A stretch of DNA of 64,000 nucleotides from the NCBI RefSeq assembly GCF_009914755.1, contig NC_060927.1; one strand, 5' to 3'. This DNA comes from the human T2T-CHM13v2.0 reference genome, Homo sapiens. Positions 3,708 through 62,530 of this stretch are shown here, in pieces (within the stretch, counting starts at the first letter, position 1; every line of letters starts with the position of its first letter). The notes under the pieces were generated by a model that did no database searches, was not told the origin of the DNA, and was given only the letters and a program-made list of their open reading frames with translations. Both the position numbers and the translations under genes were made by a program.

Positions 3708-9381
<5,674 letters not shown>

Positions 9382-57950: not shown

Positions 57951-58958
57951 AGTCTACAAAAATGAAACCTTACTTGTCCCTTTTGTCTACTGATGCACAG
58001 GGTTCTGCTCCCAGAAGGCCCTCTGCTCTTAAAGTCTTAAAATTCTTAATAATTTTATCTTTTGATGTATGCTTTGTAAGTAAAGACCAATGAGACAATG
58101 GAGCATGCACCAGGGGCTTGAAGCCTCTGCTCATGAGCAGTCTGCCTCCCACCTACCTCTCACCCAGGCGATGACTTAGTTTGTCGGGAGAGAGGCATTC
58201 CACTTTCACTTTCCACTGCTTTTGGGGCCTGGAGTATACATAGAGGTGGTCGGGGTCAGGCACATGCCTGGTGACATTTTGGGGCATGGAAGCAGCCATC
58301 CTTATCCTGAGTTGGTAGTACTTGGTGACTCTAGCATGTGATCGGCCAACCAGAGGCCATGTCTCAGATTGAGAGTCTTAACCAGTCCTGTTCCAGGTAG
58401 CTAGCACTTCCTAGCAAACAGTTTTAAAGACTTTCTGGGAGTCACCCCTCTTCTATGGTTTGAGGTGGCAGGATGGGGTCTTATTGCTGTAAAGAGGAGA
58501 AACTTAGCAGCCATCAGACTCAAATGTACTTAAGTAACTGAAGTCATGTGGTGAGACCCTCAGATGCCTGTGAAAGTCTGCAGTCATCTTGCAAGCATTC
58601 TCAAGCTGCAAGAGATATCCCCATACCTAAGAATGTGCTCCCTCAGGTCTGGTCTGGACTTGAATGACCCTGTCTTCCACCTTCCAACCTTCCTGAGACT
58701 GACTGGTTTGTCTCTTCTGGCCAACTCCCTGTGAATAATCATTTCATAGCTCTGGAGACTAGCTATTGTGTTTTTGCTACAGTTCAAAATAGAGGTTAAA
58801 TGTTCTTATATAGAATATTATGAATAATAAAAAAAGTTAACTTTCCTTTACATAGAACATAAATAGCAAATATAAAAACACTAAAGAGATAGACCACAGA
58901 AGAAAGAAAAAAGCTTTATAATTTGCAACCTTCAATGGTACCTCTTCTCCCAATTTTT

Positions 58959-59942
58959 TTTTTATATGTTTTGCTCATTTATATGAAATCCAAGAGCAGG
59001 CAGTATTAACATATGACAGAATAAATGACAGCAATGGTTGCCCCCTGAGAGGCTGCCTGGCTGCATGTGTTCAGTATGCGGGTTCACAGGCAGTATATGC
59101 ATTGCTCTGTTCATTTTTCAAATAACAAATCAGTTTTTAGCTGTGTGTCTCCCTTCAAATCTCCACTGTTTCTTCCGAATTCTGTAGGGCACCACGATTG
59201 CTTTCCTAACCTCTAGGAGCATCCCCTACCTACTATTGCAACTAGCACTTGTGGAAGTCAGTGTGGCGATTCCTCAGGGATCTAGAACTAGAAATACCAT
59301 TTGACCCAGCCATCCCATTACTGGGTATATACCCAAAGGACTATAAATCATGCTGCTATAAAGACACATGCACACGTATGTTTATTGTGGCACTATTCAC
59401 AATAGCAAAGACTTGGAACCAACCCAAATGTCCAACAATGATAGTCTGGATTAAGAAAATGTGGCACATATACACCATGGAATACTATACAGCCATAAAA
59501 AATGATGAGTTCATGTCCTTTGTAGGGACATGGATGAAATTGGAAACCATCATTCTCAGTAAACTATCGCAAGAACAAAAAACCAAACACCGCATATTCT
59601 CACTCATAGGTGGGAATTGAACAATGAGATCACATGGACACAGGAAGGGGAATATCACACTCTGGGGACTGTGGTGGGGTCGGGGGAGGGGGGAGGGATA
59701 GCATTGGGAGATATACCTAATGCTAGATGACACGTTAGTGGGTGCAGCGCACCAGCATGGCACATGTATACATATGTAACTAACCTGCACAATGTGCACA
59801 TGTACCCTAAAACTTAGAGTATAATAAAAAAAAAAAAAAAGGAATTAGATTTACAGTGACAAAGAGAATGGTGGAGGACAATGAGCACATAAGAGATTTC
59901 AAATAAAACCTTGAAGACAAAAAGTGGTCAGAAAAGTGCTAG
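58959..59942 (-). mobile_element. Complex L1HS (pre-Ta) insertion: twin-primed, with a 3' transduction; the L1 moiety (59249-59840) reads on +
   Basis: TSD ttctcccaattttt at 58945-58958 and 59943-59956. The 3'UTR has gatgacACGttagtggg and aaaacttaGagtataa, diagnostic of L1HS pre-Ta. Confidence 0.9.
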
Positions 59943-60094
59943 TTCTCCCAATTTTTGAACAAAAAGTCCCCCATAATTTGTAGGCCTAGTGCATTTTCAT
60001 TTTGTGCTAGGCCCACAAATTGTGTAGCTGATCTTGAGTATATAAGATAAAATAGAAGTTTAAAAATCCATAATTAAGACTGAACTGGAGTAGT

Positions 60095-62530
60095 CAGGAA
60101 GTTAATAAATGTTTATTGAGCACATGACATGTCCAGATATTATAATAAGCACTGAAGATAAAGTAATGACGAAGTCATACGAAGTTTCTGTCCTCAAAGA
60201 GCTTACATTCTAGATAGGAATTGAGAAGTTCCGTGGAAGTTGAGAGACAATTAAAGTTTAAACAATGTATGTAAGGGAAAAGGAAAGCAAATATCTCAGG
60301 CTCCTTAAGACTCCAACTTTAATATAATTCTTCAGCCTCACTGGAACCTTAATCTATTGATCCTACCATTTTCATTGTCATTCACCCCCTTCATGTTCCC
60401 CCTTTCTAACTTTAATTTCACAGTCAAGCTCTATAATGCTTTTCTTTCATGCATTGTCAACTCTCTTGCCTCCTTTTTGCTTTGTTTGCTTTGTCATACT
60501 TATTCAGCTTAATCTCAAACCTGATTAAATTCAACTCTACCTATCCTATTTCTAGACCCATGTAGCTGAATATGGCTAGAGAAAAATACATAACCACACT
60601 AAAGTGTCTCATTTTACCATAAATCATCACTAACTTCAAGTGGGCTCTTATGCTGCTAGGTAATCATACTATATTTTCCTAGTCCTTGCCCCTGCACTCC
60701 TGGACAACAATTGCATATTTTCTTGTTTATCCTTTTGGTTGTGTGTGTATGTGTGTGTGTTTTGTTTTGTTTTGGTATAGATGAGGTCTCACTCTGTCAC
60801 CCAGGCTGTAGTGCAATGGTGCAATCATAGCTCACTGTCGCCCTGAACTACTAGACTCAAACGATCCTCCCATCTCAGCCACCTGAGTAGCTGGGACTAC
60901 AGGCATGCCATCATGCCTGGCTAACAATTACGTATTTTCTCTAGTCTCTTTAAATCTCCAAAACTTGCTTTTCTGTCTTCAATCTCAGCAATCACCATGT
61001 GTCCTCTTTTATTGAGAAAATTGAAACAATCAGATAAAAACTTCAACAGCTATCATCACATCTACCAACCTATCTGCTTGTATCTTCATGGCCTGCATAT
61101 TCTCTCCTGTTACAGTTACTAAACTAAGCTTCTAACTAGGTGATTCATTTAACAGAATCATTCTATCTCCTGGCCTATCCTAAAGGGAATCAAGGTTGGA
61201 AGCAGGGAGAGCAGTGAAGAGGTTAATACAATAGTCTGGATGAAAAATGGATAGAGGCTTGTGTGAACTGTGTGGTAGTTATTCACTATATTCCACTTAT
61301 ACTCTAGACTCTGTTTGTACACTAGACTCCACTTATATACTAGACTTTACCTGCTTTCACCTACTTCAGAAAGTCAATCCAGCAATTTTTCCTTTGTTTC
61401 CTTTATAATAAATGTTTTTCTTTCTACTGAATCATTATATAAATATATTGTTATATCTTCCATTAAAAAAGAGAAACAATGGGTTCTAGGCTGTATTAGT
61501 CATGGGCAATATAGTAGTGAATAAAACAGACAAAAGTCTTTGCCTTCATAAAACTTACTTTCTATGGTAGAGATAGATAATATGTGTGATAAATAAGTAA
61601 TTATATGGGATATTAGACACTAATAAGTACTAAGGAAAAAATTAGAGCAGAAAAGGAGATAGGAATTCTTGGTCATTTCTCAGGAAACATCTTATTTGAC
61701 ATATCAGCAACGTATTACACAGGCTACCATTCCTACCTTAAAACACTTCAAATTCTAGAGTGCTATTTTCACCTGATTTTCTTCCTACCTTCTAGCTATT
61801 CCTTCTCAATCTCTTTAGCTTGTTCCTCCTCCATTTCAGTGGACTTAAACCAGAATGCCCCAAGACTGATTCTTTGAAACTTTTCTCTTTATATTGAAGC
61901 ACTAGATGAATTCAGCCAGCTTCATGCCTTTAAATGTCTGATGGATCATACATTTATATTTATAGTCTGGACCTCTCCACAAATTCCTAACATATATCCA
62001 GCTATTTGATATCCATTTGGATGTTTAGTAAGTATCCCAAACTTAACATGTTCAAACCTGAGCTCCTGGTATTCCTCTCATTCCTCTCACACTTTTCTAC
62101 ATCTATTAATGACAATTCCATTCTTCCAGTTTCTCAGGTCAAAAACACTGGAATCACCCTTGACCCCCATATTTCTTTCATACCCTAAATCCAATTTGTT
62201 AACAAATCCTGCTGGCACAACCTTTACAATACACTCAGATTCTGACATTGCTCACCATCTGTACTATTACCACACAGTTCAACCAAGCCTCTATCCATTT
62301 TTCACGCACACTAATACACTAACCTCTTCACTGCTCTCCCTGCTTCCAGCCTTGGTTCCCTTTAGGATACACCCAGGAGGTAGGGTGATTCTGTTACATG
62401 AAAGTTAGATTACATCACTTCCATTCTCAAAATCCTTCCATCTCACGCCAAGTAAAAGTCTAGGTCTTTACCATGTCCTGAAAGAACCAACATGATGTGG
62501 CTCTACTTTATCTCTCTGATCTTACCTCCT
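60095..62530. mobile_element. Composite of L2 fragments in both orientations, with an Alu right-monomer/AluJ piece at ~60760-60925 (-)
   Basis: aaatgtttattgagcac (antisense L2 end); pyrimidine-rich L2 body, e.g. ccaaacttaacatgttcaaacctgagctcc and gattacatcacttccattctcaaaatccttcca. Confidence 0.65.

What the first reader, a model, noticed from the sequence alone, without database searches (positions are those of the whole stretch)
58945..59956. Human-specific L1HS insertion with the twin-priming inversion inside a 3' transduction
Seen: the 590-bp L1 piece has no adjacent TSD, but a perfect 14-bp TSD (ttctcccaattttt, TTTT/GA site) brackets 984 bp. The order is poly(T) to 58963, unique DNA 58964-59248, L1 3' end on + with its A-tail 59249-59840, then unique DNA 59841-59942. 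The two unique blocks join: gtgctagtt at 59936-59944 is the reverse complement of aactagcac at 59240-59248. The reconstructed RNA is L1 3' end, poly(A), ~380 nt of source flank, then TATAAA 14 nt before the new poly(A); it reads through an AATAAA at 59902. Inference: one event, truly antisense to STXBP5L, although repeat annotation would show a sense L1 flanked by 'unique' DNA. The ACG/G diagnostics indicate pre-Ta, so it is recent, possibly polymorphic and traceable to a source L1.
Basis: partly seen in the sequence, partly recalled or inferred. Interest (0 to 1): 0.8.

Follow-up and report, generated by a model that had tools for sequence, protein, structure and literature searches.

The report
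Inverted L1 insertion carrying chr2 flank
A single, fairly recent jumping-gene (L1) insertion in an STXBP5L intron carried about 380 bases of chromosome 2 DNA with it and was partly flipped as it inserted, which is a tidy example of a known process and not a new one.

Summary
A perfect 14-nt target-site duplication (58945-58958 / 59943-59956) brackets 984 bp. In order these are a short poly(T), 285 nt of unique DNA, 577 nt of L1 3' end plus A15 on the + strand, and 102 nt of unique DNA.

In this assembly the two unique blocks map head to tail on the minus strand of chr2 (230839591-230839971) at 99-100% identity. They overlap there by the 11 nt that appear as an inverted duplication in the window.

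The best reading is one L1 insertion in minus orientation. Its template was an L1 read-through RNA with a 3' transduction of about 381 nt. It was twin-primed inside the transduced part, with 2-nt microhomology at both the 5' junction and the inversion junction.

The chr2 locus has no L1 within 8.5 kb upstream, and an 84%-identical paralogue shows it is the uninterrupted ancestral state. The progenitor L1 is therefore missing from this genome (polymorphic or lost). A less likely alternative is that the junction arose by template switching.

ACG/G marks the L1 as pre-Ta. Divergence suggests roughly 2-7 Myr with wide error. Human specificity and polymorphism could not be tested. Inversions inside transductions are already in print, so interest is modest.

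The parts
58945..58958 (.). Left copy of the 14-nt target-site duplication TTCTCCCAATTTTT. The first-strand nick on the + strand falls after 58958, in the pre-insertion site TTTTT/GA.
   Evidence: (D1, 100% identity). The nick position is inferred from the TPRT model.
58959..58963 (-). Terminal poly(A) tail of the inserted copy, seen as T5 on the + strand. It merges with the T5 of the duplication into a T10 run (58954-58963). Base 58963 could also be the last templated A of the chr2 sequence.
58964..59248 (-). Distal 285 nt of the transduced chr2 sequence, RNA sense on the minus strand. This is the product of the first cDNA, primed at the + strand nick. It contains the TATAAA used (58983-58978 on the minus strand), 14 nt before the tail.
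   Evidence: (G000:C2:230839592-230839876, minus strand, 99%), (2 mismatches).
59240..59250 (.). Left arm of the 11-nt inverted duplication AACTAGCACTT. Positions 59249-59250 (TT) are the 2-nt microhomology shared by the chr2 sequence and L1 at the inversion junction.
   Evidence: I12. (overlap at L007rc 8622-8632). (8 of 8 L1 copies inspected read ...CAACCA|TTGTGG at this point).
59249..59825 (+). L1 3' end: the end of ORF2 plus the 3' UTR, 577 nt, 5'-truncated. It carries ACG at 59732-59734 and G at 59817, and its own AATAAA at 59823. It is part of the second cDNA, so it is inverted relative to the true orientation of the insertion.
   Evidence: (40 of 40 scored genomic copies at 99% or more). 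PMC12350158 and PMC7026601 for the meaning of ACG.
59826..59840 (+). A15 run: the A-tail between the L1 and the transduced DNA. It is read as the genomic tail of the progenitor L1. The last 3 A could instead come from chr2 (AAAGG).
59841..59942 (+). Proximal 102 nt of the transduced chr2 sequence, RNA sense on the + strand. It contains an AATAAA (59902-59907) that was read through.
   Evidence: (G000:C2:230839870-230839971, minus strand, 100%).
59934..59944 (.). Right arm of the 11-nt inverted duplication AAGTGCTAGTT. Positions 59943-59944 (TT) are shared with the duplication. They form the 2-nt microhomology where the top-strand 3' end primed internally on the RNA.
   Evidence: (I12).
59943..59956 (.). 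Right copy of the 14-nt target-site duplication.
   Evidence: (D1).

Best explanation
One L1-mediated retrotransposition event inserted 984 bp into an STXBP5L intron, in minus orientation (antisense to the gene).

The template was a read-through transcript of a pre-Ta-type L1 that sat on the minus strand of chr2, just upstream of position 230839971-230839974 in this assembly. That site is about 1 kb upstream of an HSR-domain exon of a + strand Sp100-family gene. Transcription ran past the L1's own AATAAA and a second AATAAA 62 nt into the flank. It was polyadenylated about 381 nt downstream, after a TATAAA that is followed on chr2 by a T/GT-rich stretch.

At the chr3 target:
1. L1 endonuclease nicked the + strand at TTTTT/GA.
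2. The first cDNA copied the tail and the distal 285-287 nt of the flank.
3. After the second nick 14 nt away, the freed minus-strand 3' end (...GGGAGAA) paired by 2 nt with the RNA at ...GCUAGUU, inside the transduced part. It primed a second cDNA through the proximal 102 nt of flank, the A15 tail and 577 nt of L1.
4. The two cDNAs were joined at a 2-nt microhomology (TT). The first cDNA had run 9-11 nt past the internal priming point, which left the inverted duplication.

What is shown: the anatomy, the chr2 origin and contiguity, and the absence of an L1 at chr2 in this genome. What is inferred: the order of the enzymatic steps, and that a progenitor L1 once occupied, or in other people still occupies, the chr2 site.
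For: - Boundaries: perfect 14-nt duplication with a T run on one side only. A chr6 copy of the old repeat that forms the target spans the site uninterrupted.
- Origin: the two unique blocks are the only matches in the genome apart from themselves and an 82-90% paralogue (3 of 3 candidates scored in each). They abut on chr2 with an 11-nt overlap, which is exactly the inverted duplication (L007rc 8523-8632 and 8622-8909).
- Direction of transfer: the chr2 sequence continues into its flanks, and an 84% paralogue is collinear across both ends (596 of 707 aligned columns). The chr3 copy ends in a tail and a duplication. So chr2 is the donor.
- Divergence: only 2 mismatches in 381 nt. At both, the chr3 copy keeps the paralogue's base.
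- L1 piece: it differs from the most common base among its 29 nearest copies at only 3 of 577 sites. 29 of 29 share ACG and G.
- Literature (passages read in each): ACG defines pre-Ta (PMC12350158 methods; PMC7026601). A 14-nt duplication and 2-nt microhomologies fit 5'-inverted L1s, where the duplication length peaks at 14-16 bp, about 70% have 2-5 bp of 5' microhomology, and about 30% of species-specific L1s are inverted (PMC2912911). Inversion breakpoints inside transduced sequence are reported (PMC13009371). A donor L1 absent from the reference and polymorphic has precedent (PMC6425141).
Against: - No L1 lies upstream of the transduced sequence on chr2. The 577-nt L1 piece gave no alignment anywhere in the 10 kb fetched, 8.5 kb of which is upstream in RNA sense. 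The junction there reads as plain ancestral sequence. The defining feature of a 3' transduction, a progenitor L1 at the source, is therefore not met in this assembly.
- The implied endonuclease site for that progenitor (CTTT/AT on the opposite strand) only imperfectly matches TTTT/AA.
- No sibling insertion with the same transduction exists in this genome.
- The terminal tail is very short (about 5 A beyond the duplication), which is unusual for a young insertion.
- The 11-nt inverted repeat alone is not beyond chance (0.45 expected).
Confidence: 0.85

Rival explanations
1. Template-switch chimera with no progenitor L1 on chr2. L1 proteins acted in trans on a polyadenylated non-L1 transcript from the minus strand of chr2. 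The insertion was twin-primed as above. The second cDNA, on reaching the A-rich stretch (or the 5' end) just upstream of GGAATTAG, jumped onto the poly(A) tail of an L1 RNA and copied its last 577 nt.
For: - The chr2 locus is uninterrupted ancestral sequence with no L1.
- chr2 has AAA just before GGAATTAG, which could pair the nascent TTT with a poly(A) tail.
- L1 chimeras with other RNAs formed by template switching or twin priming are documented (PMC13174262, passages read).
Against: - It needs three uncommon steps together: trans-mobilisation, twin priming and a switch.
- In the chimeras described, L1 is the 3' partner where priming starts, not the 5' partner.
- The jump would have to land within 12-15 A of the L1 3' UTR.
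- No CpG island or other promoter sign lies near the site.
- No other retrocopy of this chr2 stretch exists in the genome.
- A missing progenitor is ordinary for L1.
Confidence: 0.08
2. An ordinary, uninverted L1-plus-transduction insertion on the minus strand, followed later by a separate chromosomal inversion of 59249-59942.
For: The two segments lie in opposite orientation.
Against: - A later inversion does not create the 9-11 nt inverted duplication of template sequence.
- One breakpoint would have to fall exactly at the edge of the target-site duplication.
- The 2-nt microhomologies at both junctions are the signature of twin priming.
Confidence: 0.02
3. Two nested, independent events: a retrocopy of chr2 RNA, later split by a separate + strand L1 insertion.
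For: The repeat mask shows only 59246-59851 as a repeat, flanked by 'unique' DNA (hub annotation in the finding).
Against: - The L1 piece has no target-site duplication of its own.
- The DNA on its two sides is in opposite orientation relative to chr2, with an overlap. A nested insertion would leave its flanks collinear.
Confidence: 0.01

Closest known systems
L1 5' inversion by twin priming (Ostertag and Kazazian 2001; the paper itself was not held, and is cited from reference lists and from the description in PMC2912911)
   Same: Two segments of one RNA in opposite orientation inside one target-site duplication. A 14-nt duplication. Microhomology at the 5' junction and at the inversion junction. 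A small duplication at the inversion point.
   Different: The internal priming point lies in the transduced flank, not in L1. As a result the whole L1 part is inverted, and the part carrying the terminal tail contains no L1 sequence at all.
L1 3' transduction (partnered transduction)
   Same: L1 3' end, own A-tail, unique single-copy DNA from another chromosome, polyadenylation signal, second tail, all within one target-site duplication.
   Different: The donor locus carries no L1 in this assembly, so the progenitor is inferred and not seen.
Inversion breakpoints within transduced sequence, seen by nanopore sequencing in colorectal cancer and germline (PMC13009371, passages read)
   Same: The same combined structure. 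That paper reports inversions in 30% of partnered and 16% of orphan transductions, with breakpoint clusters in the downstream transduced sequence of some sources.
   Different: Those are mostly somatic or polymorphic insertions from Ta-era sources with known progenitors. This one is a resident copy in the assembly with pre-Ta markers.
L1 chimeric retrocopies made by template switching or by twin priming on a second RNA (PMC13174262, passages read)
   Same: L1 and non-L1 sequence joined within one TPRT event, with segments in opposite orientations.
   Different: Here the + sense segment itself contains both L1 and chr2 sequence separated by an A-tail, and the two chr2 pieces overlap. One composite RNA is the simpler template.

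Membership tests
L1 endonuclease-dependent TPRT insertion | Target-site duplication of about 7-20 bp flanking the insert | tested here: met
   14 of 14 nt identical. About 0.01 expected by chance.
L1 endonuclease-dependent TPRT insertion | T-rich nick site (TTTT/AA-like) at the tail end | tested here: met
   The pre-insertion site reads TTTTT/GA. A purine follows the nick, so it is one base off the consensus. The consensus is as stated in PMC2912911.
L1 endonuclease-dependent TPRT insertion | Poly(A) tail at the 3' end of the inserted copy | tested here: met
   T10 run at 58954-58963, of which 5 T lie beyond the duplication. Short.
L1 3' transduction | Unique DNA between the L1's own A-tail and a second terminal tail, mapping to one locus elsewhere | tested here: met
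   chr2:230839591-230839971, 99-100% identity, contiguous.
L1 3' transduction | Polyadenylation signal 10-30 nt upstream of the end of the transduced DNA | tested here: met
   TATAAA lies 14 nt before the tail. On chr2 a T/GT-rich stretch follows the cleavage point.
L1 3' transduction | A full-length L1 immediately upstream of the transduced DNA at the source locus | tested here: not met
   No L1 alignment in the 10 kb fetched. The junction is collinear with an 84% paralogue. The feature could still hold in other haplotypes or species, which could not be searched.
Twin-priming 5' inversion | Two segments of the same RNA in opposite orientation, adjacent or overlapping on the template | tested here: met
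   11-nt overlap on chr2. Orientations.
Twin-priming 5' inversion | Microhomology at the 5' junction and at the inversion junction | tested here: met
   TT at 59943-59944 and TT at 59249-59250. Typical range is 2-5 bp.
L1HS pre-Ta subfamily | ACG at the 3' UTR diagnostic triplet (positions 5929-5931) | tested here: met
   ACG at 59732-59734. Definition from PMC12350158 and PMC7026601.
L1HS pre-Ta subfamily | G at the second 3' UTR marker (position 6015; this marker is recalled and comes from no call) | tested here: met
   G at 59817 in CTTAGAGTAT. 29 of 29 nearest copies share it.
Human-specific insertion | Empty orthologous site in chimpanzee and other apes | not testable with these tools
   No primate genome other than the window's own assembly is held. 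The divergence-based age is 2.2-7.5 Myr, with 95% limits of 0.5-17 Myr, so it does not decide the question.

The most novel reading that the evidence does not exclude
The L1-chr2 junction was not made by read-through from a progenitor L1. Instead, the reverse transcriptase twin-primed on a trans-mobilised antisense transcript from the 5' part of an Sp100-family gene, then switched templates onto the poly(A) tail of an L1 RNA. That would be a chimera with L1 as the 5' partner inside an inverted arm, a configuration not described in the passages read.
Probability: 0.07. Interest if true: 0.5.

Novelty: new member of a known kind. Interest (0 to 1): 0.22.

Why it matters
- Annotation: this is a clean worked example of how repeat masking can mislead. 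The mask shows a 0.6-kb sense-strand L1 flanked by 'unique' DNA. In fact 984 bp were inserted at once in the antisense orientation, and 387 bp of 'unique' intron are a copy of chromosome 2.
- Lineage: the copy preserves the flank, and at two positions the older base, of a progenitor L1 locus that is empty in this genome. It can therefore be used to look for a polymorphic or extinct source element in an Sp100-family gene.
- Limits: neither point changes what is known about L1 biology. No effect on STXBP5L is shown.

Tried and rejected
- A look for a promoter or first exon near the chr2 source found none. It used CpG counts over the first 4 kb of L007 and a short recalled N-terminal motif over all 10 kb. 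The idea that the unique DNA starts at a divergent promoter therefore has no support, though the check is crude.
- Catalogue searches gave nothing:
  - The supplementary workbook of PMC12350158 had no row near either locus by coordinate prefix. The stored file is cut and the hg38 prefixes were my own rough guesses, so this is not evidence of absence.
  - The supplement of PMC9311842 cannot be read here.
  - The supplements of PMC2912911 were listed but not read.
- Full-text searches: STXBP5L with L1HS found 0 papers. SP140L with LINE-1, polymorphic and source found 1 irrelevant paper.
- Two founding papers are not held: PMC311219 and PMC156586.
- PMC12016303 had nothing on inversions inside transductions in the passages shown.
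- Nested insertions and a later inversion were both considered and rejected on the geometry (see rival explanations).

Full report
**Observation**

- TTCTCCCAATTTTT occurs at 58945-58958 and 59943-59956 at 100% identity (family D1). The two copies enclose 984 nt.
- With the local base composition, about 0.01 exact 14-nt direct pairs are expected in the 1501 nt examined.
- A T10 run (58954-58963) lies just inside the left copy. The A run at 59826-59840 is 15 nt.
- The inverted repeat at the ends of the two 'unique' blocks is 11 nt, 59240-59250 against 59934-59944 (I12). By chance about 0.45 such pairs are expected, so it proves nothing on its own.

**Where the unique DNA comes from**

The window's own assembly can be searched.
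- The reverse complement of 58964-59248 matched three places: itself, chr2:230839592-230839876 on the minus strand at 99%, and chr2:230924719-230924988 at 82% (3 candidates, 3 scored).
- Block 59841-59942 matched three places: itself, chr2:230839870-230839971 on the minus strand at 100%, and chr2:230924982-230925083 at 90% (3 of 3 scored).
- A blastn of window 58700-60200 against 10 kb of chr2 (L007) gave two alignments. Window 59835-59944 matches L007rc 8523-8632 in one orientation, and window 58963-59250 matches L007rc 8622-8909 in the other.

On chr2 the two blocks therefore form one uninterrupted stretch. They overlap by 11 nt, and that overlap is exactly the inverted duplication.

**Direction of transfer**

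- On chr2 the stretch runs on into its flanks.
- The paralogue 85 kb away is collinear with it across both ends, with 596 of 707 aligned columns identical (84%).
- On chr3 the same DNA stops at an A-tail, a T-tail and a target-site duplication.
- The chr3 flanks belong to one old interspersed repeat, with 17 other matches at 71-83%. A chr6 copy of that repeat (L039) crosses the site without the insert and with the duplicated stretch present once.

So chr2 is the donor and chr3 the recipient.

**Anatomy and mechanism**

In RNA sense the template reads as follows:
1. L1 3' end, 577 nt (59249-59825).
2. A15.
3. The chr2 sequence from GGAATTAG to CATATA, 381 nt, plus up to 3 ambiguous A.
4. The poly(A) tail.

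The terminal tail is on the left as T's, so the first cDNA was primed on the + strand after 58958, at a TTTTT/GA site. The insertion is therefore in minus orientation, antisense to STXBP5L (the gene's strand comes from the hub annotation).

The first cDNA covers 58964-59248/59250. The rest (59249-59942) is in the opposite orientation and starts right at the other copy of the duplication. The two share TT (59943-59944). This is what internal priming by the second nicked strand predicts.

The inversion junction also shares TT (59249-59250). chr2 would continue with T, whereas L1 continues with G. 8 of 8 L1 copies inspected read CAACCA|TTGTGG there.

The first cDNA ran 9-11 nt past the internal priming point, and that gives the inverted duplication.

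These features match what is reported for 5'-inverted L1s (PMC2912911, abstract and passages read):
- Duplication length peaks at 14-16 bp.
- Only 4.6% lack 5' microhomology, and about 70% have 2-5 bp.
- About 30% of human- or chimpanzee-specific L1s are inverted.

The order of the enzymatic steps is inferred from that model. It is not shown here.

**Polyadenylation**

- The template passed the L1's own AATAAA (59823) and a second AATAAA at 59902.
- It ended 14 nt after a TATAAA (58983-58978 on the minus strand).
- On chr2 the cleavage point is followed by ...CATGCTTTTGTGTCTGGCTTCTTTTGC. From general knowledge of poly(A) sites, this looks like a downstream U/GU-rich element. No such stretch follows the AATAAA that was bypassed.

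**The missing progenitor**

- The L1 piece gave no alignment anywhere in L007, which reaches 8.5 kb upstream of the transduced DNA in RNA sense.
- The junction on chr2 reads ...CATTAAAATGATAATAAA|GGAATTAG.... The paralogue has the same uninterrupted sequence with one substitution. In this assembly chr2 is therefore in the ancestral, never-filled state.
- No other place in the genome carries the transduced DNA. There is no filled copy and no sibling insertion.

The common explanation is a progenitor allele that is absent from this haplotype, either still polymorphic or lost. There is direct precedent for a donor L1 absent from the reference and polymorphic (PMC6425141, passages read).

The implied nick site for that progenitor would be CTTT/AT, which is acceptable but not ideal.

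The alternative is that no L1 was ever there. In that case the second cDNA switched from a chr2 transcript onto an L1 poly(A) tail. Chimeras made by switching or by twin priming on a second RNA are documented (PMC13174262, passages read). I rate this at about 8%, for these reasons:
- It stacks trans-mobilisation, twin priming and a precise jump.
- It puts L1 in the unusual 5' position.
- Nothing near the site looks like a promoter (no CpG island in 4 kb).

**Where the donor site lies**

Pfam HSR (PF03172) exons lie on the + strand at chr2:230840950-230841084 and 230842045-230842236. A parallel pair lies beside the paralogue. The donor site is thus about 1 kb upstream of the first HSR-coding exon of a + strand Sp100-family gene, and the template RNA was antisense to it. 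I take this gene to be SP140L and its neighbour to be SP100, but that is recollection and not a tool result.

**Subfamily and age**

- The L1 piece matched 40 of 40 scored genomic copies at 99% or more, out of 1046 first-look candidates.
- It was compared with the 29 nearest copies that were fetched as loci, out of the 39 scored matches other than the window's own. It differs from their most common base at three sites:
  - 59388 T, a CpG decay shared by 5 of 29.
  - 59445 T, shared by 0 of 29.
  - 59489 A, shared by 4 of 29.
- All 29 share ACG (59732-59734) and G (59817).
- ACG is the pre-Ta marker (PMC12350158 methods; PMC7026601, which also gives GAG for L1PA2 or older). The second marker, G at position 6015, is recalled.
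- The transduced DNA differs from chr2 at 2 of 381 sites. At both, the chr3 copy has the paralogue's base, so both changes are on the chr2 side. Alternatively, they distinguish the lost progenitor haplotype from this one.
- Counting 3-5 changes over 1339 site-lineages, at 0.5-1.0e-9 per site per year, gives 2.2-7.5 Myr with 95% limits of 0.5-17 Myr.

The copy is young and fits pre-Ta. The numbers cannot place it on one side of the human-chimpanzee split. No ape genome or population catalogue could be consulted, so 'human-specific' and 'polymorphic' stay open.

**Rivals rejected**

- A later chromosomal inversion would not duplicate template sequence. It would also need a breakpoint exactly at the edge of the duplication.
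- Nested independent insertions would leave the DNA on both sides of the L1 collinear. Here the two sides are opposite and overlapping.

**Comparison with what is known**

Each component is textbook. The combination is also in print. Nanopore work reports inversions in 30% of partnered and 16% of orphan transductions, with breakpoint clusters in the downstream transduced sequence of some sources (PMC13009371, passages read). Long-read callers also note that inverted or transduction-bearing L1s are mislabelled by repeat masking (PMC7026601).

I found no paper naming this particular insertion. STXBP5L with L1HS gave 0 papers, and SP140L with LINE-1, polymorphic and source gave 1 irrelevant paper. 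These searches cover open full texts only, and supplements that might list the locus were not readable.

**Verdict**

The insertion is a new, well-resolved member of a known kind. Its one notable feature is that the progenitor locus is empty in this genome. Interest is 0.22.

Noticed in passing
L007 (G000:C2:230838500-230848499) and L003/L006 (G000:C2:230923219-230926583): The donor stretch and its 84%-identical paralogue lie 85 kb apart. Each is about 1 kb upstream of a pair of + strand HSR-domain exons, so this is an old tandem duplication within the Sp100-family gene cluster.
   Followed up: partly
window 58823-58958 and 59957-60037: The target of the insertion is itself an old interspersed repeat, with 17 other matches at 71-83% for the left flank. 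Its family was not identified. A chr6 copy (L039) spans the site.
   Followed up: partly
L036 (G000:C4:127455562-127459138): One of the 29 nearest L1 copies is itself 5'-inverted. Its first 1007 nt align in reverse orientation to the same region of another copy.
   Followed up: no
L029 (G000:C5:1558677-1562253); also L027, L023, L011, L036: Five of the 8 nearest L1 copies inspected have two A runs after the L1 end, separated by 2-7 other bases. These could be very short 3' transductions or interrupted tails. L029 is the only one of the 29 copies compared that shares both minority bases with the window copy (T as at 59388 and A as at 59489), so it may be a close lineage relative.
   Followed up: no
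window 59823-59840 and 59902-59907: Because the L1 arm is inverted, two AATAAA hexamers and an A15 run lie in the sense orientation of the STXBP5L intron. Whether they are ever used as premature poly(A) sites is unknown.
   Followed up: no
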